Origin: Prosthecobacter sp.
GTDB lineage: Bacteria; Verrucomicrobiota; Verrucomicrobiia; Verrucomicrobiales; Verrucomicrobiaceae
Direction: 5' to 3' (one strand)
Length of the DNA: 64,000 nt
NCBI RefSeq assembly: GCF_021733925.1
Contig: NZ_JAIPJY010000022.1
Shown: piece after piece, positions 40,517 to 63,320 of the stretch
Layout of the letters: each line of letters starts with the position of its first letter
Numbering within the stretch: the stretch's first letter is position 1
The notes under the pieces: model-generated
Database searches by the model: none
The model's input: only the letters and a program-made list of their open reading frames with translations
What the model was told of the DNA's origin: nothing
Program-made: the position numbers and the translations under genes

Positions 40517-40521
40517 TCAAC

Positions 40522-41451: not shown

Positions 41452-41460
41452 GGTCTGCGG

Positions 41461-42096
41461 CTAGACCTTCATTTTTTCGAGCTCTTTCCATGCATCAAGC
41501 TGCATGACGCCACCTATGATGTCATAGAGCACCTTGGCTGGGGCCTGACTGGCGTCGATGTCGAGGATGCGGTCGCCGGCGTAGTAGTCGAGAATGGGCT
41601 TGGTTTCGGCTTCGTAGGTGGCGAAGCGCTGCTGGATGACGGTTTCATTGGCGTCGTCAAAGCGGTTGTCTTTGAGGGCGCGTTTGCGGAGGCGGCGGGC
41701 GAGTTCGGTGCGGTCTGGGCAGGAGAGATGGAAGACTTTCAGGACTTCGATGTGGGGTTCCATGAACTTGGCCTGTTCCACGTTGCGGGGGATGCCGTCG
41801 AGGACGAGGAAGTCGATCTCTGGTTTAAACTGATGAGAATCAATGCGTTGCTCCAGATTGGAATGCCAGAGTTCGACGGTGACGTCGTCTGGGACCAATT
41901 CGCCACGGCTGGAGTATTCGACGAATTTCTGGCCGATTGCGGTGCGGGTGTCGAGGGAGCGAAAGACATCGCCGCAGGCGAGGTGGTGGAAACGGGGGAT
42001 GCTGCCAAGTACCTTGCCTTGCGTCCCCTTGCCGCTGCCGGGGGCGCCGAGGATGAGGAAGGCTCTGATGCGGGCGGTGTGAGGTGCGGTGGACAT
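41461..42096 (-). CDS. adk: Adenylate kinase family nucleoside monophosphate kinase (short LID)
   Basis: GAPGSGKGTQ, GDVFR, GELVPDD, LDGIPRN, RFDD. Confidence 0.88.
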   Translation of the reverse strand: MSTAPHTARIRAFLILGAPGSGKGTQGKVLGSIPRFHHLACGDVFRSLDTRTAIGQKFVEYSSRGELVPDDVTVELWHSNLEQRIDSHQFKPEIDFLVLDGIPRNVEQAKFMEPHIEVLKVFHLSCPDRTELARRLRKRALKDNRFDDANETVIQQRFATYEAETKPILDYYAGDRILDIDASQAPAKVLYDIIGGVMQLDAWKELEKMKV

Positions 42097-43602: not shown

Positions 43603-43689
43603 GCGCGGTGGGCTGGAAAAACGGGTGGCACAGGTGGCGCAGACCCTGCTGGTGCGCAAACGCGTTGTTCTGGATGGGGGGATCCGGAA

Positions 43690-44137
43690 TTGGTTGGCCG
43701 CAAAAGGGCGCAAAAAAAGAGGGGAGAAAAAGGGGAGATCCCGAAGGAGTGGTGGTGTTCGGGCGGGGGCCTGTTGAAGCAGGTGCCACCATTCTTGCTG
43801 TGGGGTAAGCGGAGAGATGGGTGGTGCGCGAGCGGAGAGACAGGATTAACAGGATGGCATGATTAACGGGATTAACGGAGTTGGGTGGCCGCAAAAAGGC
43901 GCAAAAACAGAGGGGAGAAAAAAGGGATTCCTGAAGGGACGGAAGTGTTGCGTGGTGGTGATGGAGTTTGGTCGGGGCCTGATGAAGGAGGTGCTGTGAG
44001 GTGAGCGGGAGGGGTGGGTGGTACGTGCGCAGATAGACAGGATTAACAGGATGGCATGATTAACGGGATTAACGGAGTTGGGTGGCCGCAAAAAAGGCGC
44101 AAAAAAGAGGGAAAAGAAAAAGGGGGATCTGGAAGGG
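43690..44137 (+). repeat. Degenerate tandem repeat, three units, period about 191-197 bp
   Basis: TTGG(T/G)TGGCCGCAAAA..GGCGCAAAAA..GAGGG at 43690, 43881, 44078; near-identical GACAGGATTAACAGGATGGCATGATTAACGGGATTAACGGAG block at 43839 and 44036. Confidence 0.9.
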
Positions 44138-44243
44138 ACGCGGGATTCTGCGGCAGCGAGATCTTTTGCTGCTGTTGATGCGTAAATCTTGGATTGAGGT
44201 TGCCTCGGCGCTGGGCAGGGGCAGTTTGAAGGATCGTTCACGC

Positions 44244-44795
44244 ATGAAAGAAAAAAAAGAAACCCTCCCGGCTTGGTACGTGGTGCATACGCGGCCGAAG
44301 TGCGAGCATATCGCGGCTTCGCTGATGGTGGGGCTGGAGGGGGTGGAGACGTACTGTCCGCGCATTCGGTTTCAGAAGAACACGCGGCGGGGCAAGGTGT
44401 GGTTCGTGGAGGCGCTGTTTCCGAGCTACTTTTTTGCGCGGTTCATTCCGAATGATTCGATGCGGGCGGTGAAGTACTCGCAGAGTGTCATTAAGGTGGT
44501 GGATTTTGGGGGGAATTTGACGTCGGTGCCGGACTCGGCCATCGCGGCGCTGAAGGCGGAGATGAAGGACATCGAAATTTGCGAGGTGGAGGTGGGCGTG
44601 AAGGTGGGGGATACGGTGGAGCTGACGGAGGGGCCGATGCGGGGGATGAAGGGGATTGTGAATGCGATGCTGACGGGCGTGGAGCGTGTGCGGATTCTGC
44701 TGGAGTTTTTGGGACGGGAGAATGCGGTGGAGGTGCCTCTGTCGAAGATATTGACGGAGCATACGCCACGGACAGTGCTTGCGGCGTCGCGGTGA
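44244..44795 (+). CDS. NusG paralog (RfaH/UpxY/LoaP-like antitermination factor)
   Basis: WYVVHTRP, EALFPSYFF, KVVDFG..VPD, VGDTVELTEGPMRG (KOW), RVRILLEFLGR. Confidence 0.9.
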   Translation: MKEKKETLPAWYVVHTRPKCEHIAASLMVGLEGVETYCPRIRFQKNTRRGKVWFVEALFPSYFFARFIPNDSMRAVKYSQSVIKVVDFGGNLTSVPDSAIAALKAEMKDIEICEVEVGVKVGDTVELTEGPMRGMKGIVNAMLTGVERVRILLEFLGRENAVEVPLSKILTEHTPRTVLAASR

Positions 44796-44836
44796 CCCGT
44801 TCTTCGCTAAAGCTTCGAAGGGCAAGCTGCGCTTGG

Positions 44837-44899
44837 GTGCCGCTGTCGAAGATTTTGACGGAGCATCAGCCGCGTGCGGTGATGGGGGCGTCGCGGTGA
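44837..44899 (+). other. Diverged duplicate of the last 21 codons of the NusG paralog
   Basis: VPLSKILTEHQPRAVMGASR* versus VPLSKILTEHTPRTVLAASR* at 44733-44795. Confidence 0.9.
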
Positions 44900-44974
44900 G
44901 GGTGGCCTACGGAACACGCGGAACAGACGGAAAATCAGACGAGGGTTGTTCTATTGTCAGTGCTGCTGAAGAGG

Positions 44975-46200
44975 GAGCCGGATTTGAACCACTGATCCAT
45001 TCTCCGTAGCAAGACTGCGAAGGATGAACTGGACACTGACTGACACTGATCTTGAGTCGGAATGCGGAATGTATTCAGGCTGAAGAGCAGATTTTTAACC
45101 ACTAATCGGACGCTAATAAGGCACTAATCAAGGCATTCAGAAATCCGGAATTTTGGATTGGTTTTTTGGGACTGGGCAGCGGGTGGGGGGCTTTGGTTTC
45201 GGCAAAGGAATGACTGAGTTTGGAGCTTGGGGAGGCGGTAGTTTTGCTGCTGTATTGCATACCAACCCCATCTTTCAGAATCTGTGACCACGGATCACTC
45301 GGATTGACACGGATGACTGAGGCTGAGGCTGACCCGCGCAATGGTTTTGATCCGTGCTGCTCGTGCTATCCGTGGTTCCATCTTCCCTGTTCAGTGAATC
45401 ATTCCACCCTGGCCTCATAACTCAATGCTCCGGGAGATAGAGCCGGATTTGAACCACTGACTGGACACTGACTGACACTGATCCTGAGTCGGAATGCGGA
45501 ATGAATTCAGGGTGATGAGCAGATTTTTAACCACTAATCGGACGCTAATAAGGCACTAATCAAGGCATTCAGAAATCCGGAATTTTGGATTGGTTTTTCG
45601 GGGACTGGGCAGCGGGCGGGGGGGGCTTTGGTTTCGGCAAAGGAATGGGTTGGCAATGGAATGCCTGAGTTGAGAACTTGGGGAGGCGGTTGTTTTGGCG
45701 GGAATTTGCAGCCTGGCCCCTTCTTCTCCTTCCAGAATTTCTGACCACGGATCACTCGGATTGACACGGATGACTGAGTCTGAAGCTGACCCGCTTAATG
45801 GTTTTGATCCGTGCTGCTCGTGCTATCCGTGGCTCCATCTTCCCTGTTCAGTGAGTGCCATTTCATTCTGGCCTCATTACTCAATGCTCCGGGAGATAGA
45901 GCCGGATTTGAACCACTGACTGACACTGATGCTGAGTCGGAGTCTGGGATTTTGGGAATGAATTCAGCGGTTTGAGAATGAGGAAGGCAGGAATTCAGGA
46001 ACCGGATTTCTTGGGAGGGGTTTGGTAAAAGATTTGGGGGTAAAAAGATTTTCCCGAACTTTTGGGTTTCTGAATTTTTTACCGCCCATTTTTTACCGCT
46101 TTATCTGGGGATCGAAGGACCACCCCTGTATAGATGAGCCGGATTTTAACGGCTGATCCATTCTCCGTCGCAAGACTGCGAAGGATGAATTGGACGCTGA
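44975..46200 (+). repeat. About 460-bp tandem repeat (2 full units plus 2 partial starts) built from short motif clusters
   Basis: GAGCCGGATTT(G/T)AAC at 44975, 45440, 45899, 46136; units 1 and 2 nearly identical apart from variable patches. Confidence 0.92.
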
Positions 46201-46263
46201 GATGATGCTGATTCAGAATTGGAATCTGGGCGGTGAACGACGGGGATGAGAGGGAAAAGCAGG

Positions 46264-46755
46264 TCAGGAAATTTCGCCGGAGGCTTTCAAGACGATGTTG
46301 CGGAGAGAGGGGCTGATCCAGAAGTGGGCCTCCTGCTCCAGGCGGTCGAGGAGCGGAGCGACTGCGGGAATGAGGGACTGTTCTTTGGCATCTCGAAGAA
46401 CTCCCAGAAGGCCTATCGTTCGAAGTCCAAGGGAAGACGCAGCGGCGCGGCCAGCCTGCTCGTCCATGAGGACGGCATCGGCCTGTCTTTCGACGGCGAG
46501 AGAGAGGGCGGCGACCTCTCCGGCATCCAACCTCGAGGAGGCCGTCAGCGCGGGCAGCAGTTGGAGTGGTGCTGCCTTTTCGATGAAGTGGGGGAAAGCC
46601 AGTCCCTGAAACCGTGCATCCTCTGCAGCGAGCCGCTGAAACTCCACGACGACCATGGTGGGAGCCAGGATCCTTCCATACAAAAGCCGCAGCAGCTCCT
46701 GCTGCCCGATGAGGCAGAGGTTGAGGACGACTGAGGTATCGGTGACGACGGTCAC
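46264..46755 (-). CDS. DUF3368 family PIN-domain protein (putative toxin)
   Basis: VVTDTSVVL, LDAGEVAAL, LMDEQAGR..GLRTIGLLGVL..AK; GTGA overlap with the upstream gene. Confidence 0.85.
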   Translation of the reverse strand: MTVVTDTSVVLNLCLIGQQELLRLLYGRILAPTMVVVEFQRLAAEDARFQGLAFPHFIEKAAPLQLLPALTASSRLDAGEVAALSLAVERQADAVLMDEQAGRAAASSLGLRTIGLLGVLRDAKEQSLIPAVAPLLDRLEQEAHFWISPSLRNIVLKASGEIS

Positions 46756-46991
46756 AGGGTGCGCAGGGCGCGAAGTGATTCCAAATCCTGCGCCCAACGT
46801 TCCTCATCATAAGAAGGGATGTGTCGAGCGAAGAGAGTCTGGTCGAAGGCATGACGGTCCATGCCAGCCATGCGGGCAGCCACGCCCCGTGAGACATGAC
46901 CTGCCGCATAAGCGCCGCAGGCGAGGTCGAGCAAGATTTCGGCCTCGCCCATCTCGGTGAGCGCGGGGTCATCTGGAAGCGTGATGGTCAT
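46752..46991 (-). CDS. UPF0175 family protein (putative antitoxin)
   Basis: 79 aa; LDLA..Y..GHVSRGVAARMAGMDR..F..L..DL. Confidence 0.8.
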   Translation of the reverse strand: MTITLPDDPALTEMGEAEILLDLACGAYAAGHVSRGVAARMAGMDRHAFDQTLFARHIPSYDEERWAQDLESLRALRTL

Positions 46992-47120
46992 GGATTGAGG
47001 ATAATGGAAAAGCAGGCGGAGGCAAGGCAACGTCTGCGGGGCAGGGCGTCGTTCAGGTGGGAATTGCAGGGTGAAGGGCAAGCTGCGCTTGGGGACCCAT
47101 TCTTCGCTAAAGCTACGAAG

Positions 47121-47347
47121 CACCTGAACTCAATGCGGCTGGATTGTTTAACGGAGGATACCCAGATGGAGTTTATTTGGCAGCCGTTTGCACGAACTAA
47201 GCTTCCCAGATTCCGGCTAAAGCCGGGACTACAAAACGTGTTCTGGCTGGTTTCAGATTTGGGGCGATGCGGAGCTTCCGGAACGGGCTAAAGCCCGAAC
47301 TACGTACTCAGAGGAGCCGGAAAAGTGCGAGGATGTTATTCGGGAGG
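47121..47347 (+). repeat. About 220-bp dispersed repeat with two REP palindromes; second copy at about 62487-62701
   Basis: CGAACTAAG..CCAGATTCCGGCTAAAGCCGG..CTTCCGGAACGGGCTAAAGCCCGAACTACGTACTCAGA..TTATTCGGGAG in both copies. Confidence 0.88.
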
Positions 47348-47521
47348 GCAAGAGCCCTTGGTGCGGGGCTGGCGGTGTGATCGCGGTGAAAAAGCGCCCG
47401 GACAGCTCCTGATACCGGACTGCGCTAGTCGTGGGTGTTTGCCATACGCGCAGAGACGGGTGGGCTGTCGCCACACCCATCCTACGTCCGGACGGGCACG
47501 TTAGCTGTTTGTCGCTGATTT

Positions 47522-48691
47522 TCAGCGCTGTTTCATGGCGGCTTGGAGCATAGAGTCGGTGATGGTGAGTTTTGGGGTGGGGCCGGTGTCGGCGAGCATG
47601 GCTTTGGCGAGGAGTTCGGAGAGGGGGCGGAGGATGCTGAAGTGGTCGGCGGCGGGGATCTCGAAGAAACGGACGTGGCGGCGGGAACGGGTTTTGCGCA
47701 TGAGGCGGAGGGCGTCGATGTTGCCGTCTTCGCCTTCGATGATGAAGGTGGGGGAGCTGAGGCCGTCGAGGCAGAGGATGGGGGCGCGGGGGGTGAGCTC
47801 GGCTTCGTTTTCGACATCGAAGGGGAGGATGTCCTGGCCATAGGCGCCGGTGCTGTGGACGGCGCCGAAGGCGACGGTGGCGCGAAGGCCGGTGGTGGAG
47901 CCGGCGACGAGGAGGGCGAGGGTGCCGCCGGTGCTGTGGCCGCCGAGGTAGATGCGGGCGGGATCGATGTAGGGCTGCTGCTTGAGCCAGGCGAGGGCGG
48001 CGATGACGTCGTCTGCCTCGCCGAGGAGGCCTTCTTTGAAGCCGGGGTTCGTATTTCCGCCGCGGAGGGAGGGGTAGAGCATGAGGAGGCCGGCCTGGCG
48101 GAAGGCGCTGGCGGACTGGTCGTTTTCGGGGTCGCCGGGCGGGAGGACGTCGGCGGAGATGCTGTTGCTGAAGCCGCCGATGAGCCAGATGATGGCGGGG
48201 TGCTTTTTGCCGTCTGCGGGATCTGCGGAGACATAGGCTGCCATGTCGCCGAGGGGGCCGGGATAGGTGACGAGCTTCATGCCGGTGTCGGGGGCGGGCG
48301 GGGCGGCGGGTTCGTTTTCGCGGTCTTTGCGGATGAGGTGGGTGTGGAAGGACTGCCGGTCGCGGGCGTGCTGGAGGGCGCGATCTTTTACGGCGGTGTC
48401 GGCCAGAGTGACGAAGTAGGGCTGGAGCATGAGGCCTGCGAGGGCGAGGGACCAAAAGAACACCGCGACGTAGCCGATGATGAGGCCTGAGAGGGCGATG
48501 CCGCTGCCGGTGAGGCTGGCGGCCTGCCTGCGGATGCGGGAGCGGCTGATGTGGCCGATGATGACGCCGATGAGGGCGGGGATGCCGAAGGCGATGAGTC
48601 CGATGATGCTGAGTAGCAGGGAGGCGACGGCGAGCTTGTCGGTGGAGCGACGATGGGCGACGGGCAGCGGGGGTGGGGTGCTGGGGGACAT
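47522..48691 (-). CDS. DUF4190-like N-terminal membrane domain fused to an alpha/beta hydrolase (S9-like)
   Basis: LAVASLLLSIIG..GVIIGHISRSRI..G.GIALSGLIIGY; IYLGGHSTGG nucleophile elbow; IIEGEDGN..ADH. Confidence 0.8.
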   Translation of the reverse strand: MSPSTPPPLPVAHRRSTDKLAVASLLLSIIGLIAFGIPALIGVIIGHISRSRIRRQAASLTGSGIALSGLIIGYVAVFFWSLALAGLMLQPYFVTLADTAVKDRALQHARDRQSFHTHLIRKDRENEPAAPPAPDTGMKLVTYPGPLGDMAAYVSADPADGKKHPAIIWLIGGFSNSISADVLPPGDPENDQSASAFRQAGLLMLYPSLRGGNTNPGFKEGLLGEADDVIAALAWLKQQPYIDPARIYLGGHSTGGTLALLVAGSTTGLRATVAFGAVHSTGAYGQDILPFDVENEAELTPRAPILCLDGLSSPTFIIEGEDGNIDALRLMRKTRSRRHVRFFEIPAADHFSILRPLSELLAKAMLADTGPTPKLTITDSMLQAAMKQR

Positions 48692-48802
48692 TGGATGGCG
48701 TATAAGCTGGTGGGGAGGTTTTGCCCAAACAAAAGGGTGGGGCTCGTGGAGGGGTGGCGGGTCAAACTGCGGCAGGTGACGGAATCTATTTCATGCCTGA
48801 TT

Positions 48803-48822
48803 CCGGCTAAAGCCGGTACTAC
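48803..48822 (-). repeat. GTAG-type REP palindrome, one of 8 co-oriented copies
   Basis: CCGGCTAAAGCCGGTACTAC; relatives at 47213, 47284, 50979, 59215, 59250, 62578, 62649. Confidence 0.85.
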
Positions 48823-49002
48823 AGAACAGCGCTGGGTGAGTCGATGGCTTCGGGGCTTTGAGAGGGGTTCATTCGAATTCAGTGCTGTGCAGATGTCAAC
48901 CCGGCCAAAAGGGAAGGAGGTGGAGTGCTGCGGCATGCTGGGCCTTGCATGTGGCGTGGGGTGGGGTAGCTGATTCTCTGCCCTTTTTTCCTTTTTTCTG
49001 CC

Positions 49003-50613
49003 ATGCTTACTCTTCGCGACGTCACCAAGACCTTTAACGCCCGCACGCTGTTTAGCGCTGCGTCGATGACCATCAACTATGGGGAGCGGGTGGCGCTGGT
49101 GGGGCCGAATGGGGCGGGGAAATCGACGTTGTTTTCGCTGATTTTGAAGACGGACACTCCGGATGCGGGTGAGGTGATCCGGGATGAGTGGACGACGGTG
49201 GGATTTCTGCCGCAGGAGAGTGAGCCGATTGGCAATGAGACGGTGCTGGAAGTGGCGACGGGCAAGGCGGGGGAGATTGAGGCGCTGGAGAAGATTTTGC
49301 GTGATTTTGAGGCTGTGGGTGATGTTTCCAGCCCGGAATACTTTGAGGCGCATGCGAAGCATGATGCGCTGCAGGACCCGCAGACTGAGGCGAAGGCGAA
49401 GCGCATCCTGAAGGGATTGGGATATAAGGAGGAGGATTTTTCGAGGCCGGCGCGTGAGTTTAGCGGTGGCTGGGTGATGCGTGCGCACATGACGCGGCTG
49501 CTGGTGATGGAGCCGGATCTGCTGCTGCTGGATGAGCCGACGAACCATCTGGACCTGCTGTCGCTGATGTGGTTCCGGAATTACCTGAAAAATTATCCGG
49601 GGGCGCTGCTGATCATCTCGCATGACCGTGACTTCATGGATGAGCTGGTGCAGCAGGTGTATGAGATCGAGGAGGGCAAGCTGCAGGCGTACCAGGGGAA
49701 CTACAGTGACTACCTGAAGCAGCGCGAGGAGAATTACGAGCGTGCGATGCAGTCGTACAAGAATCAGCAGAAGGAGATCGAGGCGATTCAGGATTTCATT
49801 GACCGGTTCCGGTCGGTGGCATCAAAGGCGTCCCAGGCGCAGAGCCGTGAGAAGCAGCTGGCGAAGATGGACAAGCTGGACAAGCCGCGGCCGCTGCGGA
49901 AGGGCTTCCGCTTTAATTTCCCGCAGCCGCAGCGGAGCGGGCAGCGGCTGATCGCGCTGACGGACATTCATCAGGCGTATGGGACGAAGAAGGTGTACAC
50001 GGGGCTGGATCTGGAAGTGGAGCGTGGTGAGCGGACGGTGCTGGTGGGGCCGAACGGGAGCGGGAAATCGACGCTGATCAAGATTTTGGCGGGTGAGGTG
50101 CCGTTTCAGAAGGGTGAGCGCAGGCTGGGGACGAATGTGAAGCTGGGGTATTTTTCGCAGCATCGGGCGGATACTTTGGACCCGGACTGCAGTGTGCTGG
50201 AGGAGCTGAAGCGTGTGGCGCCTGAGCTGCGTGAGGATGAGGCGCGGAGCATTCTGGGGAGCTTCCTGTTCAAGCGTGAGGACGTGCACAAGAAGTGCCG
50301 GGTGCTGAGCGGTGGTGAGAAGAGCCGGGTGAACTTGGTGAAGTTCTTGGTGGATCCGCCGAACCTGCTGCTGATGGACGAGCCGACGACGCATCTGGAC
50401 ATCTGGGCGATTGAGGGGCTGATTCTGGCGCTGCAGAAGTTTGAGGGGACGCTGGTGTTCATCAGCCATGACGTGCATTTCATTCGGTCGCTGGCGACGA
50501 AGGTGCTGCATATTGTGGATGGGAAGGTGACGGCGTATTCGGGGGACTATGATTACTACCTGCAGAAGACGGGCGCGGAGGAGAATGCGCGGGCGGCGGT
50601 GGTGGCGGGGTAG
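49003..50613 (+). CDS. ABC-F family ATPase
   Basis: Two NBDs (GPNGAGKST, FSGGW, LLLDEPTNHL; GPNGSGKST, LSGGE, DEPTTHL), interdomain linker, no TM segment. Confidence 0.95.
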   Translation: MLTLRDVTKTFNARTLFSAASMTINYGERVALVGPNGAGKSTLFSLILKTDTPDAGEVIRDEWTTVGFLPQESEPIGNETVLEVATGKAGEIEALEKILRDFEAVGDVSSPEYFEAHAKHDALQDPQTEAKAKRILKGLGYKEEDFSRPAREFSGGWVMRAHMTRLLVMEPDLLLLDEPTNHLDLLSLMWFRNYLKNYPGALLIISHDRDFMDELVQQVYEIEEGKLQAYQGNYSDYLKQREENYERAMQSYKNQQKEIEAIQDFIDRFRSVASKASQAQSREKQLAKMDKLDKPRPLRKGFRFNFPQPQRSGQRLIALTDIHQAYGTKKVYTGLDLEVERGERTVLVGPNGSGKSTLIKILAGEVPFQKGERRLGTNVKLGYFSQHRADTLDPDCSVLEELKRVAPELREDEARSILGSFLFKREDVHKKCRVLSGGEKSRVNLVKFLVDPPNLLLMDEPTTHLDIWAIEGLILALQKFEGTLVFISHDVHFIRSLATKVLHIVDGKVTAYSGDYDYYLQKTGAEENARAAVVAG

Positions 50614-51074
50614 GGCGGAAGCAAAATTGCAAACTGAGAACTGAAAACTGGGAATTGTAAATGAGCCGGAGGGGGAGGTCTTCGCGTGAGCGTGAGGGAT
50701 GCGACTTTGCGGTGGCGCTGGGCTCATCTCGGCGGAGCGAGATGGCTACTGTACCGGGGCGGAGGAGAATGCGCGGGCGGCGGTGGTGGCTGGTTAAGAA
50801 ATGACGAATGAGTAAATCCGAATGACGAATAACGGAGCCGCCAGAAGGCGGAGGAGGTGGACGCAAAGAGGGGCAAAAAGATGGGACTCTTTTTTTGAGA
50901 ATCTGCTTTGCGCTTTTTGCGACTGACTTCCTACGGAAGAACGGGGCGGAAGGGCGGTTGGTGGACGTTCGTCCGGAACCGCCTAAAGGCGGAACTACAA
51001 TACTTACGCTGGGTTTGCGGGGTCGGGGAGCAGGTGTGCGCCTTCGGAAACCGCACACGGAGTGTGCGGACCAC
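50614..51074 (+). repeat. Mosaic repeat region containing a synonymous duplicate of the ABC-F 3' end (50753-50797), two heptamer arrays and three REP-like palindromes
   Basis: AAACTGA-type array 50624-50658; REP 50725-50749; AATGACG-type array 50800-50834; REPs 50979-50998 and 51051-51074. Confidence 0.85.
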
Positions 51075-51140
51075 TTCACGCTGGGTGGGCGGCAGCCGAA
51101 TGATCGGATCCCGGACCTGTTGCGGCGCAACTGGGCTGCT

Positions 51141-54893: not shown

Positions 54894-55046
54894 GAGGAAA
54901 AAAGAAAATACGACGGCACTGTTTCAGAGAACCGCGCTGCGGGCAAGCCTTGTAAGCTGAGAGAAGCAAAAAGGTTGGACCCTTTCATTTGCTTATGTTT
55001 GCATGCAGTCATCTTCTGACGGCAAAGTTTCCCTACGTACATTCCA

Positions 55047-56246
55047 ATGACCCCGCAACTAGGCTACATCTCCCACGGCAGGCTCTATCTCAAATCGATC
55101 GGAGGCGGCGAGGAGGAGATTGTTTCGGAATTCAGCAGCAATTTGAAGAAGAGGCTGCAAAGCGTGCAGGACCGGCAGGGCTTTCGCGGAGGTGGCAGCG
55201 GTGCGGGATTTATGCGGGGAGGAATGCCCACTGGCGAACCGGCCAGTGTCGAGGATACTTTTCACAGCGAGTTTTCCTGCGCAGGCTGTCAGGATGGACA
55301 CATTTGCTATGCGATTGATGCCAATGAAGTGCGTGCCCTGTTTGAATACGATCCGGGCGAAAAGTACGAACGCCGCCTTCTGCATGGCCCGAAACATCGT
55401 TTCAGTTCGATTTCCACACGCCGAAGTGAAGACATGCCGGAATGGCTGCTGGCGGCGGCGCAGGACCATGGTGTGAGCCGCATCTGCCTGTTCAAACCTG
55501 AAGCGGGCGGTGGCGGGTTGATGGAACTTACCGAAGGGGATTCGCTGGACACTTTTCCGGTCTGGGAGCCTGGCACTGCGCGGTCGTTGGTTTATCAAAC
55601 GTGTGGGATCGCCCGCCAGGCGAACACGCATGCGTGGGCAGGGTTGGGACCGGCGACGTTGCATCGTTTGAATCTGGACTCCGGAGCCATGGAAACCGTG
55701 GCGGAGGATGTGCGGTATGATTTTCTATGCCCTTCGTTTTCACCCGAGGGAACGCTGTATTACCTGCGCAGGCCGTATGAGCCCTTTCATACGCCGTCGT
55801 TTTGGAACATCCTCAAAGACATCGTTCTGTTTCCGTTCCGGCTGGTCAGGGCTGTCTTCGGATTTTTGAATGTCTTTTCGATGTTGTTTTCGGGGAAGCC
55901 TTTGCAAACAGCGGGCAAACCACCGCAACCGCAGACGGCTGATCCCAAGGCTGTTTTTCTGCATGGCCGCTGGGTCAACATGGAGAAGGCGATGCGCCAT
56001 GCCGCCCAGGATGAGCTGAGCAATTTTGTTCCGCGCAACTGGCAGCTCATGCGGCATCTGCCGAATGGTGATGCCAAAGTCGTCTGCGAAGGAGTGATGG
56101 CGTATGCGGTAGGAGCGAATGAAACGGTCTATTTTTCCAACGGCTCAGGTGTTTATGTGCAGAAGGATGGAAGTTCCAAACCTGAAAAAGTGAGTGATCG
56201 GAAACTTGTGACGTCGCTGTTTGTGCGTGACACGGCTCGCACTTGA
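55047..56246 (+). CDS. Hypothetical protein with TolB/PD40-like segments and an internal hydrophobic stretch
   Basis: 399-aa ORF; DTFPVW, CPSFSPEGTLYY; function not recognised. Confidence 0.65.
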   Translation: MTPQLGYISHGRLYLKSIGGGEEEIVSEFSSNLKKRLQSVQDRQGFRGGGSGAGFMRGGMPTGEPASVEDTFHSEFSCAGCQDGHICYAIDANEVRALFEYDPGEKYERRLLHGPKHRFSSISTRRSEDMPEWLLAAAQDHGVSRICLFKPEAGGGGLMELTEGDSLDTFPVWEPGTARSLVYQTCGIARQANTHAWAGLGPATLHRLNLDSGAMETVAEDVRYDFLCPSFSPEGTLYYLRRPYEPFHTPSFWNILKDIVLFPFRLVRAVFGFLNVFSMLFSGKPLQTAGKPPQPQTADPKAVFLHGRWVNMEKAMRHAAQDELSNFVPRNWQLMRHLPNGDAKVVCEGVMAYAVGANETVYFSNGSGVYVQKDGSSKPEKVSDRKLVTSLFVRDTART

Positions 56247-56274
56247 AACGGCGGAGGTAATTTAAAACAATATG

Positions 56275-56610
56275 TAATTCTACTTTGGTAAGTTATCGGG
56301 GCTGTGGGGGGCTGGCGGTACGCCCTGAGCGCGGCGGAGCTTCTTGCAAACGCTGCTGGTGGACGTGGTGTGTGGCGAAGGCGCAGGGTTGGCTTCCCGG
56401 TGATTGTCGTCCGGTACCAGGGTAGCCTCGCTGAGGCTCGGCAACCCTTCGCTTTGATGCGCAGTCCCGTTGGGACTGGTGAAAAGCGGAAGGGAATGAG
56501 GAAAGACCATGGCACCCTGCCAAGAGCATTCCACGGCGTAAGATGTGATGCCGCAGGAAAGACATCCCGATGGATTTTAAGCCCTCTGATAACTTACCAA
56601 AGTAGAAGTA
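56275..56610. mobile_element. MITE-like element with 20-bp perfect terminal inverted repeats, enclosing copy 2 of the 215-bp repeat
   Basis: TTCTACTTTGGTAAGTTATC (56278-56297) and GATAACTTACCAAAGTAGAA (56588-56607); TA at both outer ends; no coding capacity. Confidence 0.65.
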
Positions 56611-56660
56611 AGTGGCCCTACAGGCGCTTTCGCCGGAAGGAGCTAAAGCTCCTGAGTACT

Positions 56661-58865
56661 TTACTTGAAGCGGCGGAGGCGGAGGCTGTTTAGAATCACT
56701 GAGACACTGCTCAAGGACATCGCCACGCTCGCGATCATGGGATTGAGCTGCCAGCCGGTGAAGGGATAGAGGATGCCGGCGGCGAGAGGGATGCCGAGGC
56801 CATTGTATAAAAACGCGAACATGAGGTTCTGGCGGATGACCTTCATGGTTGCGTGACTGAGGGCGAAGGCCTGATGCAGGGCGTGGAGATCTCCTTTCAC
56901 GAGGGTGACGGAGGCGCTCTGGATGGCTACTTCGGTGCCGGTGCCCATAGCGATGCCGACATCGGCTGCGGCAAGGGCGGGCGCATCATTGATGCCGTCG
57001 CCGGCGAAGGCGACATGGCGGTCTTTGCCGCGTGCCTGATAGACGTGGAGCAGTTTTTCCTTGGGTGAGACCTCGGCGGCGACTTCGTCGATGTTCAGAT
57101 CTTTGGCGACGCGCTGCGCGGTGGCGAGGGCGTCTCCGGTGATCATCTGCAATTTCATGCCGAGCGCGTGCAGCGCGGCGATGGCGGGCGGGGCGGACTC
57201 CTTGATCTTGTCTTTGATGGCAATGAGGCCGAGCGGCTTCTCGTTGAGCACGACGACCACGACGGTGCAGCCGTCCTCCTGCATTTTGACCGAGTGGGCG
57301 TGGCACTCGGTGCTGACCAAGACGCCGTTCTTTTTCAAGAAGGCCTCCTGACCGATGAAGACCTCACTTTCACCGACATTTCCCAGCACGCCGCCGCCGG
57401 TGACTGACTGGAAATCGGTGACGGCAGCGATGGGGATGCTGCGCTCCTTGGCAGCATTCACGATGGCGGTGGCGAGGGGGTGCTCGCTCATGGATTCAAC
57501 GGCGGCGGCGCAGGCGAGGAGATCGCGGGCGGAGAGGCCGGGGAGTGGGAAGACTTCTGTGACTGACGGTTTGCCCTCGGTGAGGGTGCCGGTTTTGTCG
57601 AGCATCACGATGTCGATGTCGTGCAGGCGTTCGAGAGTTTCGGCGTTTTTGATGAGCACGCCGAGCTGTGCGCCACGGCCGAGGCCGACGGTGACGGCCA
57701 TGGGGGTGGCGAGGCCGAGGGCGCAGGGGCAGGCGATGATGAGGACGGCGACCGCATTGACGACGGCGAAGGCAAACGAGGGCTGCGGACCGAACTGCCA
57801 CCAGAGGAGAAAGGTGAGGGCTGCCACGCCCACGACTGCAGGAACAAACCAGGAGGACACACGATCTGCGAGACGCTGCACAGGTGCGCGGCTGGCCTGA
57901 GCCTTGGCGGTCATTTCCACGATCTGACTCAGGAGGGTGTTCGCGCCGACGCGTTCTGCACGCATGAGGAAGGTGCCGCTGCCATTCACGGTGCCGCCGG
58001 TCACTGCGGCGTTTGCTTCCTTTTTCTGCGGCATGGATTCACCGGTGAGCATGGATTCATCCACGGTGGAGCTGCCTTCGGTCACGATGCCATCGACAGG
58101 AACACGTGAGCCGGGCTTGATGCGGAGGACATCGCCGATTTGGATGTCATCGACCAGAGTTTCGATCTCCTCACCGTCGCGAACGAGCCATGCGGATTTC
58201 GGGGCGAGATTCATCAGGGCGCGAATCGCGGAGCCGGTGGCTTTGCGGGCGCGCAGTTCGAGCAGCTGGCCGAGGAGGACGAGGACGGTGATGACGGCGG
58301 CGCTTTCAAAGTAGAGCACCATGCCCGCGTGTCCGGCCTGGTGCGGCAGCAGGTGCGGTGCCGCGAGCGCCACGGTGCTGTAGAGCCACGCCGCGAGCAC
58401 GCCGAGGCCGATGAGGGTGAACATGTTGAAGCGCAGGGTGCGCAAGGAACTGGCAAAGCGCACGAGCAAGGGCCAGCCGACCCAGAACACCACGGGAGTG
58501 GCCCACACGAACTGCATCCAACCGGAGGCTTCGTGGGGAATGTCGCGAATGACGGGCAGGTTCATGCCCATCGAGAGCAGGACCACGGGCGCGGTCATGG
58601 CGGTGCTCCAGCGCACGCGCCACCAAAGATCGATCACTTCATCATCACCGCCGTCACCACAGCATTCGGGCTCGTTGCGGTGTGCGAGGGGATTTTTTTC
58701 CAAGGCCATGCCGCAGTGCGGGCATGCGCCGGGTTTGTCGGAACGCACGCCCTCGCACATCGGGCAGATGTAGGCTGCCGGTGGCAGGCTTTCCTTCACA
58801 GCAGCGGCTGGCTGCGCCTCTTCCGGGGCGCAGTGCGGGCAGGATTTCGGTGCATTGGGAAGCAT
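56661..58865 (-). CDS. copA: Heavy-metal (Cu+-type, P1B-1) P-type ATPase with N-terminal Cys-rich metal-binding domain
   Basis: YICPMC..PGACPHCGMAL; TGES, IACPCALGLATP, DKTGT, SEHP, GDGIND, YN and MxxSS motifs. Confidence 0.93.
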   Translation of the reverse strand: MLPNAPKSCPHCAPEEAQPAAAVKESLPPAAYICPMCEGVRSDKPGACPHCGMALEKNPLAHRNEPECCGDGGDDEVIDLWWRVRWSTAMTAPVVLLSMGMNLPVIRDIPHEASGWMQFVWATPVVFWVGWPLLVRFASSLRTLRFNMFTLIGLGVLAAWLYSTVALAAPHLLPHQAGHAGMVLYFESAAVITVLVLLGQLLELRARKATGSAIRALMNLAPKSAWLVRDGEEIETLVDDIQIGDVLRIKPGSRVPVDGIVTEGSSTVDESMLTGESMPQKKEANAAVTGGTVNGSGTFLMRAERVGANTLLSQIVEMTAKAQASRAPVQRLADRVSSWFVPAVVGVAALTFLLWWQFGPQPSFAFAVVNAVAVLIIACPCALGLATPMAVTVGLGRGAQLGVLIKNAETLERLHDIDIVMLDKTGTLTEGKPSVTEVFPLPGLSARDLLACAAAVESMSEHPLATAIVNAAKERSIPIAAVTDFQSVTGGGVLGNVGESEVFIGQEAFLKKNGVLVSTECHAHSVKMQEDGCTVVVVVLNEKPLGLIAIKDKIKESAPPAIAALHALGMKLQMITGDALATAQRVAKDLNIDEVAAEVSPKEKLLHVYQARGKDRHVAFAGDGINDAPALAAADVGIAMGTGTEVAIQSASVTLVKGDLHALHQAFALSHATMKVIRQNLMFAFLYNGLGIPLAAGILYPFTGWQLNPMIASVAMSLSSVSVILNSLRLRRFK

Positions 58866-59034
58866 TGCAGCGGTAAGGTAGCCGCACAAACAACGCCATC
58901 TCCAGCCGATTCTTGGCGAAAGGTGGTTGATGGACGGGGTTATAGGTGAGGTAGACTGCCGCAGGCAACACGAAGGGCGAGCGCCGTGGGCCAAGGGTTA
59001 GGGGGCAGCCCATCCTGGCGGAGGGTGTCTGTCG

Positions 59035-59269
59035 CCCCCTCACCCCGGCCCTTTGACTTCGTCTATCTCCGCTGCGCTCCGGTTCCCCGAAGAAAAAGAT
59101 TTGTTATTGTCGTCTTGTCAGGGGCGGGGAGAGGGAGAACCGCTTTGGCTGCCCTGAATTTATCGGACACGGTCAGCGTTCACGAAGGGAACAGCATAAG
59201 TCGGAAGCCCAGAACGGGCTGAGGCCCGAACTACGTACAAAGAAGCGGACCGGCTAAAGCCGGGACTAC
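59035..59269 (+). repeat. Mosaic of repeat remnants plus two REP palindromes
   Basis: CCCCCTCACCCCGGCCCT (59035-59052) and GGGGAGAGGGA (59126-59136) split by about 70 bp; REPs at 59215 and 59250. Confidence 0.6.
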
Positions 59270-59342
59270 AATACATGCGCTGGATTGGCGGATGTCTGCT
59301 GCGTTTGAGAAAGCTTAATCGGCCCTTATATTTGTTGATGCG

Positions 59343-62300: not shown

Positions 62301-62399
62301 GGCGCGCTGGAGGACGGGATAGACATCGCGGGAGAAGTCGGTGCCTGCGGCGTGAAGAGTGGCTGTGGTGAGCAGCGCGATGAGGGCGAAGCGAAGCAT
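59343..62399 (-). CDS. Planctomycete-type cytochrome c / DUF1549 / DUF1553 (PSD1) protein
   Basis: ACFECHG, WLDLARYADS, TLEQIAGDL, LECAQCHNHKYDP, RVTVNRWW, RLDAEAIRD, NTPLQALTLLN. Confidence 0.95.
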   Translation of the reverse strand: MLRFALIALLTTATLHAAGTDFSRDVYPVLQRACFECHGPEKHKGDLRLDAASPQHLKIGTDLLRRVALPKENKEAMPKRGNRLTATEIDHLRAWITAGAQWPDKLETHQHWSYLPPQRPALPSVKNQAWPKNEIDRFILAKLEASQLSPSPPATPETLIRRLTLDLTGLPPTPAEVDAFLKEHSKNPASSIEHLATRLLASQQFGVRWARPWLDLARYADSHGFQRDDLREVWAWRDWVVNALNANMPFDQFTLEQIAGDLLPNATPEQIIATGFHRCTPTNVEAGTEPEESRINQVIDRVNTTGAVWLGTTLECAQCHNHKYDPISQRDYYSLLAYYNNTEKEAERTNPKTPGSIQFQGSPYKLSDPAGEAQRQQLAAQMRTLVAQISARQNQLATTGAPADKIASSNALKPLKPTTFITESEAESELQPDGSVLLTGSVPDKDTYTFETELSAGELSGLMLDTLTHTSIPGDGPGRGGVNRPNFVLHSFDCTLTTPDGKTQPLIFKTAYADYSQKGYEVTSLVTKTGKSAWAIGQRFHEPHWAAFELKQPVTIAAGTKLSIHMAQNFGNGLVIGCLRISSITGNVASCLPEVEEPAPVAKKDRKGKAAPAPLSKDPALANLEKQKLALQKQITALAPPTSEVMRELPQPRMSAIFKRGVYTDPADPVTAAVPAIFNTPLKGPPNRITLAKWLVSRENPLVARVTVNRWWAELFGTGIVSTLEDFGIKGAPPTHPELLDWLATEFIDSGWDMKHLLKKIVLSATYQQTSSIPALATQAPPPEIINHKSKIINPSASSLDPSNSLLWHSPRFRLDAEAIRDNALAIAGLLNLKQGGTPIRPPQPEGLWKKVGGQQYNYVVSPGAEQYRRGLYVVLKRGSPYPSFMNFDASARMACVVRRSRSNTPLQALTLLNDPVYVEATQAFAKRIVAESPSTDLDSRLRHAFRLALSRSAQPQELAVLKTLWETQFESAKADAPATKELTTGLELPKNLPPAEFAAWYAVASAILNLDECITKG

Positions 62400-62834
62400 G
62401 CTTCTGTATGAACGAGGCGCGGAGGGCAGACTTTCGGGATCTGGAGGGGGGAGCGTGTTCTGGAGCCACTGATTTACACCGCAGAGCACCTTAACTCAAG
62501 CTGGCTTGATTGTGGAACGCAAGGTAACTGTCGGGAGTTTGCTTGGGCGTCGTATGCGCGAACTAAGTTTCCAGATTCCGGCTAAAGCCGGTACTACAAA
62601 ACATGCGCTGGCTGATTTTAGATCTGGGGTGATGTGGGGCTTCCGGAACGGGCTAAAGCCCGAACTACGTACTCAGAATAGCCGGGAGAGTTATTCGGGA
62701 GATTCGGAGAACGCAGAGAATATCTTTGAACTCGGAGCTTTGTGGTTTTGTGTTGAAGTGGATAGGCTGGGAGGATTTGCAGGGTCTCTTTTTGGCAAAG
62801 GAATGGTGGGCAAAGGCGGTCAAAGAATGGCGGC

Positions 62835-63320
62835 ACCAGCCCGCTGATCCCAAGGCCAGGGCGCGTCGTCACATCGTGGTGCGCAAGCAGATCAGCCGCC
62901 GGCCGCTGGCTGGAGGCAAGCTGCTCTTTGAGGATCTGCCCGACTACCGCCTCAGCCTGCATGTGACCAATCTCGACCTGCCGCTCGATCAGATTTGGAA
63001 GATCTACAACAGCCGGGCCGATTGCGAAAACCGCATCCGGGAGTTGAAGCAGGACTTCTGGGCCACTGAGGCGTTGTTCCGTTTTATCATAGTGGCCTAC
63101 AACCTGATGAGCCTGTTCCGGCATTTTGGGCTCAACAGTCACAACCAGGCTACTTTGGCGACGCTGCGATCCTATTGCTTGGCAACAGGCGGCTGGGTCA
63201 GCCAGCACGCCCGCAAGCGAGTGCTTCACTGCCCCGCAAAAAACGCCCCTGGATGGACTCCATCTTCAGCCAAATTGAAGCCCGCCCCCACCGTTTAGCA
63301 ATTCCAATGCATACTCCGGG
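62835..63320 (+). mobile_element. IS1380-family transposase remnant (3' part only, frameshifted) with probable right end
   Basis: ARRHIVVRK, VTNL, YNSRADCENRIRELK, WATEA..AYNL; frame change before RKKRPWMD; TGCATACTCCGGG at 63308-63320 as candidate end. Confidence 0.78.

What the first reader, a model, noticed from the sequence alone, without database searches (positions are those of the whole stretch)
43690..63320. Candidate undescribed system: repeat cassettes stacked at gene 3' ends, each insert bounded by an alternative copy of the gene terminus
Seen: three unrelated genes (NusG paralog, ABC-F, Cu-ATPase) are each followed by 40-400 bp of palindromic or heptamer repeats and then a second copy of their own last codons. 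The copies differ mainly at synonymous positions. The same spaces hold tandem units, a circularly permuted 43-bp motif, co-oriented REPs and a small TA-like gene pair. Inference: ordinary target-site duplications start identical and decay without regard to codon position, so these copies were probably once translated termini, for example from related strains. Small units carrying 'gene tail + repeat' would then integrate by recombination at the tail and swap C-termini, like miniature versions of att-site reconstitution by integrative elements. No recombinase or HUH enzyme is in the window, so any catalyst would act in trans.
Basis: partly seen in the sequence, partly recalled or inferred. Interest (0 to 1): 0.82.

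Follow-up and report, generated by a model that had tools for sequence, protein, structure and literature searches.

The report
Displaced gene ends at recombination hotspots
In this freshwater Prosthecobacter genome several ordinary genes are followed by an insert and then a left-over older copy of their own last codons. These are real scars of DNA exchange between related lineages, a known but little-studied pattern, and I found no sign of a dedicated mobile system.

Summary
Two of the three reported cases are solid. The NusG-paralog tail (44732-44795) recurs at 44836-44899 after a 40-nt REP-like insert. The ABC-F tail (50569-50613) recurs at 50753-50797 after 139 nt. The Cu-ATPase echo is weak, and its insert is an ordinary miniature transposon with a short target duplication.

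The NusG structure is not an assembly artefact. It is identical in two independent assemblies, is present in a diverged strain, and a related form occurs in a cultured isolate.

My own scan found about 15 such cases genome-wide. Inserts are REPs, transposon cores, toxin-antitoxin pairs or unknown genes. Pooled differences between copies are biased towards synonymous changes and reject simple decay of a target-site duplication.

In relatives, the displaced tail types serve as working termini. Each ABC-F copy carries the downstream DNA of a different lineage. Stacks reach four tails.

The best reading is one-sided homologous recombination with an illegitimate joint, which leaves the resident gene end behind, followed by reshuffling among the copies. 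This matches "insertion with long target duplication" and C-terminal displacement. Junctions share no motif and cargo is heterogeneous, so a dedicated catalyst is unsupported. This scan has noted the same pattern before in other phyla.

The parts
43685..44124 (+). Three ~195-nt tandem units upstream of the NusG paralog. Context only; not part of the tail duplication.
   Evidence: the repeat finder families D6 and D9; sequence.
44244..44795 (+). NusG-paralog gene (183 aa).
   Evidence: Pfam PF02357, E=2e-12. Orthologues in 23 of 24 same-genus genomes.
44732..44795 (+). Working tail, copy 1 (...VPLSKILTEHTPRTVLAASR*).
   Evidence: Between the window and strain L095, synonymous divergence here is 15.6%, against about 2% in the first 400 nt of the gene.
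44796..44835 (+). 40-nt REP-like insert ('REP40'). Its core has at least 32 related copies in the genome.
   Evidence: The fold is not unusually stable, z=-0.1.
44836..44899 (+). Displaced tail, copy 2 (...VPLSKILTEHQPRAVMGASR*). 53/64 identical to copy 1, with the stop in register.
   Evidence: The closely similar types HQPRAVMGAR and HQPRAVIGAR are working termini in G001, G022, L017 and L098-L100. The structure is identical in independent assemblies L096 and L097.
44962..46200 (+). About three and a half ~450-nt tandem units of low GC. Filler within the expanded NusG to ABC-F gap.
   Evidence: the repeat finder D2, D3, D16, D19, D20. No Rfam hit.
46264..46991 (-). Toxin-antitoxin pair: UPF0175 antitoxin (46752-46991) and DUF3368 PIN-like toxin (46264-46755).
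   Evidence: Pfam PF03683, E=2e-12, and PF11848, E=9e-11.
47074..47326 (+). Permuted REP40 motif (47074-47121) plus a REP doublet (47206-47238 and 47278-47313). The same composite recurs at 62568-62691.
   Evidence: (D4, D5, D10).
49003..50613 (+). ABC-F ATPase gene (536 aa).
   Evidence: Pfam ABC_tran x2 plus ABC_tran_Xtn. In many relatives it starts 12 nt after the NusG paralog; here the gap is 4.2 kb.
50569..50613 (+). ABC-F working tail, copy 1 (TGAEENARAAVVAG*, TAG stop).
50614..50752 (+). 139-nt insert: an AACTGAG-type heptamer array (50631-50665) followed by a GTAG-type REP hairpin (about 50720-50752).
   Evidence: Its first ~62 nt are homologous to the native downstream DNA of L018.
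50753..50797 (+). ABC-F displaced tail, copy 2 (same peptide, TAA stop), followed by AATGACG-type repeats.
   Evidence: Copy 2 plus its downstream DNA matches the single native arrangement in L014, L015 and L017.
56241..56272 (-). Weak echo of the Cu-ATPase terminus (IVLNYLRRFK versus VILNSLRLRRFK*). It has no stop and overlaps the end of ORF 55047-56246.
   Evidence: The ungapped score is within the control range.
56270..56612 (.). Classical miniature transposon, ~340 nt, with 23-nt terminal inverted repeats (56275-56297 and 56588-56610).
   Evidence: the repeat finder I3, 96% complementary. 11 full-length copies flanked by TTA/TAA, and about 100 copies of the core.
56661..58994 (-). Copper/heavy-metal P-type ATPase gene.
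   Evidence: Pfam E1-E2_ATPase, Hydrolase and HMBD.
59209..59291 (+). REP doublet between the PSCyt2/PSD1 gene and the Cu-ATPase gene.
   Evidence: the repeat finder D5, D7, D10.
62568..62691 (+). REP doublet, 88% identical to 47203-47326.
   Evidence: the repeat finder D4.
62726..63298 (+). Fragment of a DDE transposase (C-terminal part only).
   Evidence: Pfam PF13701 DDE_Tnp_1_4, profile positions 308-415 of 435.

Best explanation
These are displaced gene termini: scars left where DNA from a related lineage recombined in next to a conserved gene.

Proposed steps:
1. Incoming DNA carries the 3' part of the gene plus whatever that lineage has downstream. That cargo may be REPs, short tandem arrays, a miniature-transposon core, a toxin-antitoxin pair or another small gene.
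2. The incoming DNA pairs by homology inside the gene.
3. Its far end joins illegitimately a little upstream of the resident stop codon.
4. The gene stays intact with the imported end (copy 1). The resident end (copy 2) is pushed downstream and is no longer translated.

This explains two features. The copies are orthologous alleles, so they differ mostly at silent sites. Intergenic DNA in this clade is unalignable between lineages, so the repeat appears to stop at the stop codon.

Later, ordinary homologous recombination reshuffles the copies. Unequal crossover stacks further tails and makes chimeric ones. Allele import keeps replacing the working end. Deletions remove copies.

Shown here: the structures are real, they recur across the genome and genus, the copies have allele-like divergence, relatives carry the alternative arrangements, and one chimeric tail exists. 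Inferred: the recombination route (one-sided homology plus an illegitimate joint, or the equivalent single-crossover integration of a circularised fragment) and the route of DNA entry into the cell.
For: (1) The structure is real.
- The window contig comes from a MEGAHIT k141 metagenome assembly.
- The NusG tail1-REP40-tail2 structure is 296/296 and 292/292 identical in contigs from two other sequencing runs (L096, L097).
- It is also present in a strain whose gene is 95% identical (L095), there with a 70-nt insert.
- The cultured isolate P. fluviatilis KACC 12649 (L029) carries REP40 plus a displaced tail.

(2) It recurs.
- Tails matched their own downstream 1 kb in 47 genes at score 40 or more, against 4 in the reverse-complement control.
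- About 15 cases survived curation, with repeats of 27-258 nt at 90-98% identity.

(3) The copies carry a coding signature.
- Differences by codon position are 44/19/81, with 69 synonymous and 53 non-synonymous codon changes.
- A 'duplicate then decay' simulation expects 41/40/63 and 43/83. None of 2000 simulations reached the observed values.

(4) Relatives carry the alternative arrangements.
- ABC-F copy 2 plus its downstream DNA is the native state of L014, L015 and L017. The insert after copy 1 is the native downstream DNA of L018.
- NusG tail types swap between working and displaced roles among genomes.
- The NusG to ABC-F gap is 12 nt in many relatives and 4-9 kb in this clade.

(5) Homologous reshuffling is visible.
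- At C76 the layout is tail1-52 nt-tail2-52 nt-tail3 with identical spacers. Tail 2 resembles tail 3 in its 5' part and is identical to tail 1 in its last 18 nt.
- L033 and L108 carry four tails each.
- Between the window and L095, the working 3' end is 8-16% diverged, all silent. The first 400 nt of the gene are about 2% diverged, and the displaced tail plus 335 nt downstream about 3%.

(6) No common element is involved.
- Cargo is heterogeneous, and gene-bearing inserts are single-copy.
- Junctions share no motif.
- Some gene 5' ends are also duplicated.

(7) There is precedent. Insertion with long target duplication has been described without mobility genes, mostly in naturally competent species (PMC2853133). 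[quoted passage not shown]
Against: - Homology-facilitated illegitimate recombination is reported to be orders of magnitude rarer than plain homologous recombination (PMC5361080).
- Competence or any other DNA entry route was not examined in this genome.
- No same-species 'empty' and 'filled' pair was available, so no recombination breakpoint could be mapped. All ABC-F relatives are only about 94% identical.
- In 11 of 16 cases the repeat ends 0-2 nt after the stop codon. My explanation, that homology is limited to coding DNA, is an inference. A true preference for inserting at stop codons is not excluded.
- A REP CTAC/GTAG end abuts a tail copy at two junctions.
- 12 of 87 miniature-transposon cores have long flanking direct repeats, against 0 in the control. 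This hints that repeat elements may take part.
- Several cases (C108:33557, C29, C102:16705, C123) look like plain decay.
Confidence: 0.6

Rival explanations
1. Insertion with long target duplication in the strict sense. A break with widely staggered nicks, or a replication template switch, captures a piece of DNA and duplicates 30-260 nt of target, so the two copies are identical at birth. The silent-site differences arise later, because homologous allele import keeps replacing the working gene end.
For: - Several pairs are nearly identical: C75 61/62, C108:9704 38/39, C6 38/38.
- The window versus L095 comparison shows allele replacement of the working end after the structure already existed.
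- 12 of 87 transposon-core copies are bracketed by 25-93-nt direct repeats.
- The phenomenon is described in PMC2853133.
Against: - Random staggered cuts should give repeats that run past the stop codon. Instead 11 of 16 end within 0-2 nt of it.
- The ABC-F insert is the orthologous downstream DNA of another lineage, not DNA captured from elsewhere in the genome.
- Identities of 90-98% equal the usual inter-species distance in this clade.
Confidence: 0.2
2. A dedicated mobile system. Small non-autonomous 'gene tail + repeat' cassettes, or REPs and miniature transposons themselves, are integrated at gene ends by a catalyst acting in trans, such as a RAYT/HUH enzyme or an integrase. The gene end is reconstituted as at an att site.
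For: - At least 7 Y1_Tnp (RAYT-like) genes lie elsewhere in the genome. Four were tested and pass Pfam's cut-off.
- The REPs have the GTAG/CTAC plus hairpin form.
- A REP end lies exactly at a junction in two cases.
- The right end of REP40 is joined to three different sequences in related strains.
- Inserts begin right at stop codons.
Against: - No element or junction motif is shared across about 15 cases.
- Cargo ranges from 40 nt to 1.3 kb of unrelated content.
- There is no integrase in or next to the inserts examined.
- IS200/IS605-type chemistry makes no target duplication (established knowledge).
- The one clear transposon in the window makes only a TTA/TAA duplication.
Confidence: 0.12
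3. Assembly artefact: two co-occurring strains' alleles were concatenated in a metagenome-assembled genome.
For: - The genome is a metagenome-assembled genome from a MEGAHIT assembly.
- The two copies look like two alleles.
Against: - The identical structure occurs in two independent runs' contigs, in a diverged strain, and a related form occurs in an isolate genome.
- The NusG unit is 168 nt, so single 141-mers span the insert and the allele-specific sites of both copies.
- The junction sequences are not present in either single-copy allele.
Confidence: 0.03
4. A functional switch. The spare tails are kept as alternative C-termini, and recombination between copies changes the protein end in the manner of phase variation.
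For: - NusG tails differ at 4 residues in the KOW-domain tail.
- Tail types swap roles among genomes.
- The displaced NusG tail keeps its frame and stop in two strains. The two strains differ at one codon, CGT versus AGG, and both encode arginine.
Against: - ABC-F, C14:10045, C102:7562 and C108:9704 encode identical peptides in both copies, so a switch would have no phenotype.
- Several displaced copies carry in-frame stops.
- Tail 2 is out of frame for read-through: it lies 41 nt after the stop.
Confidence: 0.05

Closest known systems
Insertion with long target duplication (Nobusato et al. 2000; Furuta, Abe and Kobayashi 2010, PMC2853133)
   Same: - Direct repeats longer than 30 bp of unique host sequence flank an insert that has no mobility genes.
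- The repeat is present once in a related genome.
- The repeats often overlap a gene's 3' end.
- The mechanism is unknown.
- An amplification and release cycle via the repeats has been proposed.
   Different: - It was described for restriction-modification gene complexes. Here the cargo is REPs, tandem arrays, transposon cores, toxin-antitoxin pairs and unknown ORFs.
- Here the repeats are allele-diverged, with a bias to silent sites.
- They end at the stop codon.
- They are stacked up to four deep.
C-terminal displacement and sequential displacement by homology-facilitated illegitimate recombination (Rhs loci, Jackson et al. 2009, PMC2935791; Vibrio T6SS effector-immunity arrays, PMC5361080)
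   Same: - A conserved 5' anchor gene.
- An incoming segment replaces the 3' end.
- Old 3' ends pile up downstream as orphans.
- No integrase is involved.
   Different: - There the displaced ends encode different toxin domains with immunity genes, under diversifying selection.
- Here the ends are near-synonymous alleles of housekeeping-type genes with no toxin function.
att-site duplication by integrative elements at gene 3' ends (tRNA-gene islands; e14 and phage 21 in icd)
   Same: The element brings a surrogate gene end, and the original end is displaced downstream as a direct repeat.
   Different: - No integrase gene.
- No constant element.
- No common core sequence.
- Inserts can be as small as 40 nt.
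REP/RAYT systems and miniature transposons
   Same: - The inserts are largely built of GTAG-type REP hairpins and a multi-copy miniature transposon.
- RAYT-like genes exist in the genome.
   Different: - These elements are not known to duplicate tens to hundreds of bases of target.
- The full-length transposon here makes only a TTA/TAA duplication.
Minimal mobile elements of Neisseria (variable cassettes between conserved genes, exchanged by transformation).
   Same: Variable DNA between conserved flanking genes is swapped among lineages by homologous recombination.
   Different: That exchange is clean, with both flanks homologous, and leaves no displaced gene ends.

Membership tests
Insertion with long target duplication | Direct repeats longer than 30 bp flank the insert. 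| tested here: met
   64 nt (NusG), 45 nt (ABC-F), and 27-258 nt genome-wide.
Insertion with long target duplication | The repeated sequence occurs once at the same site in a related genome that lacks the insert. | tested here: met
   Single ABC-F tail in L013-L015, L017 and others. Single NusG tail in G001, G017, L017 and L098-L107.
Insertion with long target duplication | No transposase, integrase or other mobile element within the insert. | tested here: met
   By inspection, the insert ORFs are PIN/VapC-like and RHH-like proteins or unknowns. They were not run through Pfam. The small inserts have no ORF.
Insertion with long target duplication | The cargo is a restriction-modification gene complex, as the class was originally defined and searched. 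| tested here: not met
   The cargo is REPs, tandem arrays, a transposon core, toxin-antitoxin genes and unknown ORFs.
C-terminal or sequential displacement (Rhs, T6SS arrays) | A constant 5' gene with a string of orphaned 3' fragments downstream. | tested here: met
   Three tails at C76. Four tails in L033 and L108.
C-terminal or sequential displacement (Rhs, T6SS arrays) | The orphans encode divergent toxin domains paired with immunity genes. | tested here: not met
   The tails encode identical or near-identical peptides of NusG-like, ABC-F, MutL-like and similar proteins.
C-terminal or sequential displacement (Rhs, T6SS arrays) | Formation by one-sided homology plus an illegitimate joint. 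| not testable with these tools
   This needs same-species filled and empty alleles, or transformation experiments. Breakpoint mapping failed because relatives are only about 94% identical.
Integrative element with att duplication | A tyrosine or serine recombinase gene in or beside the insert. | tested here: not met
   None among the insert ORFs or the window ORFs scanned. Only a DDE transposase fragment at 62726-63298.
Integrative element with att duplication | A common core sequence at both junctions, shared across insertion sites. | tested here: not met
   The junctions of 18 cases show no shared motif.
REP/RAYT | A short GC-rich hairpin next to a conserved GTAG/CTAC tetranucleotide, in many copies. 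| tested here: met
   Eight co-oriented copies in the window. 72 matches to one subfamily pattern in the genome. Hairpins have z about -2.
REP/RAYT | A Y1 (HUH) transposase of RAYT type encoded in the genome. | tested here: met
   Four candidates pass the PF01797 cut-off. At least 7 candidates were found by motif.
REP/RAYT | The RAYT gene is flanked by its cognate REPs. | not tested
   The flanks of the candidate genes were not examined.
Miniature inverted-repeat transposon (window 56270-56612) | Terminal inverted repeats, multiple copies, and a short fixed target duplication. | tested here: met
   23-nt inverted repeats, 96% complementary. 11 full-length copies flanked by TTA/TAA.
Diversity-generating retroelement (variable and template repeat at a gene 3' end) | Differences confined to adenines of the template copy, with a reverse transcriptase nearby. 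| tested here: not met
   Substitutions are of all types. No reverse transcriptase among the neighbouring genes.

The most novel reading that the evidence does not exclude
Prosthecobacter, and the other phyla where this scan keeps seeing the same scar, may have an active, so far undescribed route that places foreign or repeat DNA immediately after stop codons while duplicating the gene end. It might be driven by REP/RAYT-type single-strand chemistry or by an end-joining repair pathway. The sharp stop-codon boundary in 11 of 16 cases, the REP ends lying exactly at two junctions, and the long direct repeats around 12 of 87 transposon cores would then be its signature.
Probability: 0.12. Interest if true: 0.8.

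Novelty: new variant of a known kind. Interest (0 to 1): 0.45.

Why it matters
It documents, across a whole genus of free-living Verrucomicrobia, how accessory DNA accretes next to conserved genes without any recognisable mobile-element machinery. That DNA includes toxin-antitoxin pairs, repeats and small genes.

The process leaves datable 'fossil' gene ends that record which lineage's allele was resident before each event. A 12-nt gene junction has grown into a 4-9 kb variable region this way.

The scars could serve as markers for inter-lineage recombination. They are also a warning for annotation, because they resemble pseudogene fragments or false 'duplications'.

If the stop-codon precision turns out to be mechanistic, it would point to a new insertion pathway.

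Tried and rejected
- **Diversity-generating retroelement:** rejected. Substitutions are not adenine-specific and there is no reverse transcriptase.
- **tRNA-like or known RNA in the inserts:** none found by ARAGORN or Rfam.
- **Assembly chimera:** rejected on the independent assemblies.
- **More relatives by genome handle:** I used the search for related loci and the look-up of encoding contigs instead.
- **Mapping a recombination breakpoint in ABC-F:** uninformative. All relatives are about 94% identical.
- **Gene-agnostic test of whether local direct repeats end at stop codons:** no clear enrichment (17 test pairs against 12 wrong-strand control pairs). It was confounded by a CRISPR array, tandem arrays and my crude ORF calls, so I do not rely on it.
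- **Element-driven long target duplication by the transposon core:** 12 of 87 copies have long flanking repeats. Inspection showed no fixed element termini, and some copies sit in arrays or pre-existing repeats.
- **Two first attempts at the genome-wide scan** timed out.
- **Cu-ATPase echo in relatives:** the neighbourhood is not conserved, so no help.


Full report
**What the window is.** The window is G000:C19:32877-96876 of a 7.3-Mb, 127-contig, 59.5% GC genome. Related loci carry titles naming Prosthecobacter and Verrucomicrobiaceae. The contig is a MEGAHIT k141 contig of ENA assembly ERZ27280278, so the genome is a metagenome-assembled genome.

**Observation: the two strong cases.**
- The NusG paralog (44244-44795, Pfam NusG) ends with 64 nt (44732-44795). 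These recur at 44836-44899 with 53/64 identity and the TGA stop in register, after a 40-nt REP-like insert.
- The ABC-F gene (49003-50613) ends with 45 nt. These recur at 50753-50797 with 40/45 identity after 139 nt. The four sense-codon differences are silent, and the stop changes from TAG to TAA.

**Observation: the weak case.** The Cu-ATPase case is a 17-nt echo with one mismatch. It reaches about 33 nt if a 6-nt gap is allowed, and it has no stop. Its score lies inside the range of my controls. The ~340-nt insert there is a classical miniature transposon. It has 23-nt terminal inverted repeats, 11 full-length copies flanked by TTA/TAA, and about 100 copies of its core.

**Observation: the other items.** REPs of the hairpin-plus-CTAC type are co-oriented. 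The toxin-antitoxin pair is UPF0175 plus DUF3368. The permuted 40-nt motif is present. Its core has at least 32 related copies in the genome.

**Is it real?** Contigs from two other sequencing runs (L096 from ERR3719154, L097 from SRR12088351) carry tail1-REP40-tail2 with 296/296 and 292/292 identity. A strain whose gene is 526/552 identical (L095 from SRR29729385) has the same layout, with a 70-nt insert that is REP40 with a nested REP. The isolate P. fluviatilis KACC 12649 (L029) has REP40 followed by a displaced tail. An assembly chimera is therefore very unlikely.

**Is it more than three cases?** I called ORFs crudely and compared each gene's last 75 nt with its own downstream 1 kb.
- 47 genes scored 40 or more, against 4 for the reverse complement of the same downstream DNA.
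- After removing tandem paralogs, repeat-protein ORFs, a CRISPR array and tandem arrays, about 15 cases remain, with repeats of 27-258 nt at 90-98% identity.
- By inspection, the inserts hold PIN/VapC-type toxin-antitoxin pairs (C14:10045, C75:168986), an RHH antitoxin (C102:7562), unknown ORFs (C14:78176, C80:31089, and C109:83471 behind a MutL-like gene), or copies of the transposon core (C108:9704).
- Gene-bearing inserts are single-copy in the genome. Small inserts are made of multi-copy repeats.
- In a relative (L086), a two-gene insert that looks by eye like a RelE-type toxin-antitoxin pair sits behind ABC-F between 27-nt tail copies.

**Do the copies look like former coding ends?** Pooled over 15 cases, differences fall 44/19/81 on codon positions 1/2/3, with 69 synonymous and 53 non-synonymous codon changes. 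I simulated identical copies diverging, with the working copy under purifying selection and the other neutral. That model expects 41/40/63 and 43/83, and none of 2000 runs reached the observed values. The signal is carried by C109, C76, C80 and ABC-F. NusG alone is not significant. Four cases look like plain decay, some with in-frame stops.

**What relatives show: ABC-F.** ABC-F copy 2 and the AATGACG-type DNA after it match the single, native arrangement in L014, L015 and L017. The first ~62 nt after copy 1 match the native downstream DNA of L018. The window therefore carries two lineages' 'gene end plus downstream' segments in series.

**What relatives show: NusG paralog.**
- The window's working tail is HTPRTVLAASR and its displaced tail is HQPRAVMGASR.
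- G001, G022, L017 and L098-L100 use the closely similar HQPRAV(I/M)GAR as the working end.
- L018 works with HKPRAVMGAR and has HTPRTVLAASR as its displaced copy.
- L104 works with HKPRDVVAASR, which is the displaced copy of the isolate L029.
- L033 and L108 carry four tails in a row.
- In many genomes the NusG paralog and ABC-F are 12 nt apart. In this clade the gap is 4-9 kb, filled with lineage-specific short tandem arrays, REPs and small genes.

**Signs of ordinary homologous reshuffling.**
- At C76 the layout is tail1-52 nt-tail2-52 nt-tail3. The spacers are identical. Tail 2 resembles tail 3 in its 5' part and is identical to tail 1 in its last 18 nt. This is what an unequal crossover between tails would produce.
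- Between the window and L095, the first 400 nt of the gene differ by about 2%, positions 400-488 by 8% and the working tail by 15.6%, all silent. The displaced tail and the next 335 nt differ by about 3%. The working 3' end was therefore replaced by an imported allele after the duplicated structure already existed.
- Some gene 5' ends are also duplicated upstream, starting at the start codon. I did not curate these.

**Mechanism.** The simplest account uses no special machinery.
- DNA from a related lineage pairs within the conserved gene, and its other end joins illegitimately just upstream of the resident stop codon. This is homology-facilitated illegitimate recombination, as proposed for T6SS arrays and Rhs loci (PMC5361080). 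Single-crossover integration of a circularised fragment would give the same product.
- The account explains the heterogeneous cargo, the allele-like divergence, the 90-98% identities (equal to inter-species distances here), and the lack of junction motifs.
- It also explains why the repeat seems to end at the stop codon in 11 of 16 cases: intergenic DNA is not alignable between lineages.
- The pattern matches 'insertion with long target duplication', described for restriction-modification genes without mobility genes and with unknown mechanism (PMC2853133).

**What remains open.**
- I could not map a breakpoint, test competence, or see reads.
- The stop-codon precision, the REP CTAC ends lying exactly at two junctions, the right end of REP40 joined to three different sequences in related strains, and long direct repeats around 12 of 87 transposon cores against 0 in the control keep an element- or enzyme-driven route alive at low probability.
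- Inspection found no fixed element termini.
- RAYT-like Y1 transposase genes exist elsewhere in the genome, but nothing links them to the duplications.

**Earlier notes of this scan.** The scan has recorded the same pattern in other phyla. Those are unchecked leads. They agree with the reading reached here from the literature search and from my own comparisons.

**Verdict.** The finding is a real, recurrent and genus-wide feature. It is explained best by known kinds of recombination rather than a new system. Interest is moderate.

Noticed in passing
G000:C9 about 11955-13165 (outside the window): CRISPR-like array: a 37-nt repeat GTCTCCAGTGCCTTTCGGCGGGTGTGTGCTGAGGAC with a period of 70-73 nt. 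It surfaced as a confounder in the repeat scan.
   Followed up: no
window about 40000-42000: GC skew flips from about -0.2 to +0.35, and the cumulative skew has its minimum here. This could be a replication origin or a strand-switch point.
   Followed up: no
window 44796-49002, compared with L020, L022, L024, L026, L030, L039, L040, L105-L107: The NusG paralog and ABC-F are 12 nt apart in many relatives. Here they are separated by 4.2 kb, and by 4-9 kb in the sister genomes.
   Followed up: yes
L017, L025, L027, L029, L031, L033, immediately after the NusG-paralog stop; window 50631-50665 and 50798-50830: Hypervariable tandem arrays of 7-11-nt units begin right after stop codons and differ between species. 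Examples are GGTTTGC-, GTTGACGGTGG-, GGTTCTC-, GAGACAAT-, AACTGAG- and AATGACG-type units.
   Followed up: partly
L086 11611-12220: A two-gene insert that looks by eye like a RelE-type toxin-antitoxin pair (not run through Pfam) sits directly behind ABC-F in another genome, between two 27-nt copies of the gene end that are 25/27 identical.
   Followed up: partly
G000:C76:57791-57993 (minus strand): Three copies of the last 99 nt of an 844-aa gene are separated by identical 52-nt spacers. The middle copy is a chimera of the other two.
   Followed up: yes
G000 genome-wide, for example C67:12175, C76:70835, C107:30600: 12 of 87 copies of the ~150-nt transposon core have 25-93-nt direct repeats within 200 nt on both sides, against 0 in a mismatched-flank control.
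   Followed up: partly
G000:C8:5903, C77:12457, C36:18342: Gene 5' ends, starting at the start codon, are repeated 290-770 nt upstream. This is a possible mirror image of the tail duplications. Some may instead be adjacent paralogs.
   Followed up: no
window 55047-56246: A 399-aa ORF with no Pfam match is absent from relatives in which the Cu-ATPase gene directly abuts the kinase region.
   Followed up: no
G000:C27, C28, C42, C47, C65 (two), C89, C99: Several RAYT-like Y1 (IS200-like) transposase genes. Four were tested and pass Pfam PF01797.
   Followed up: partly
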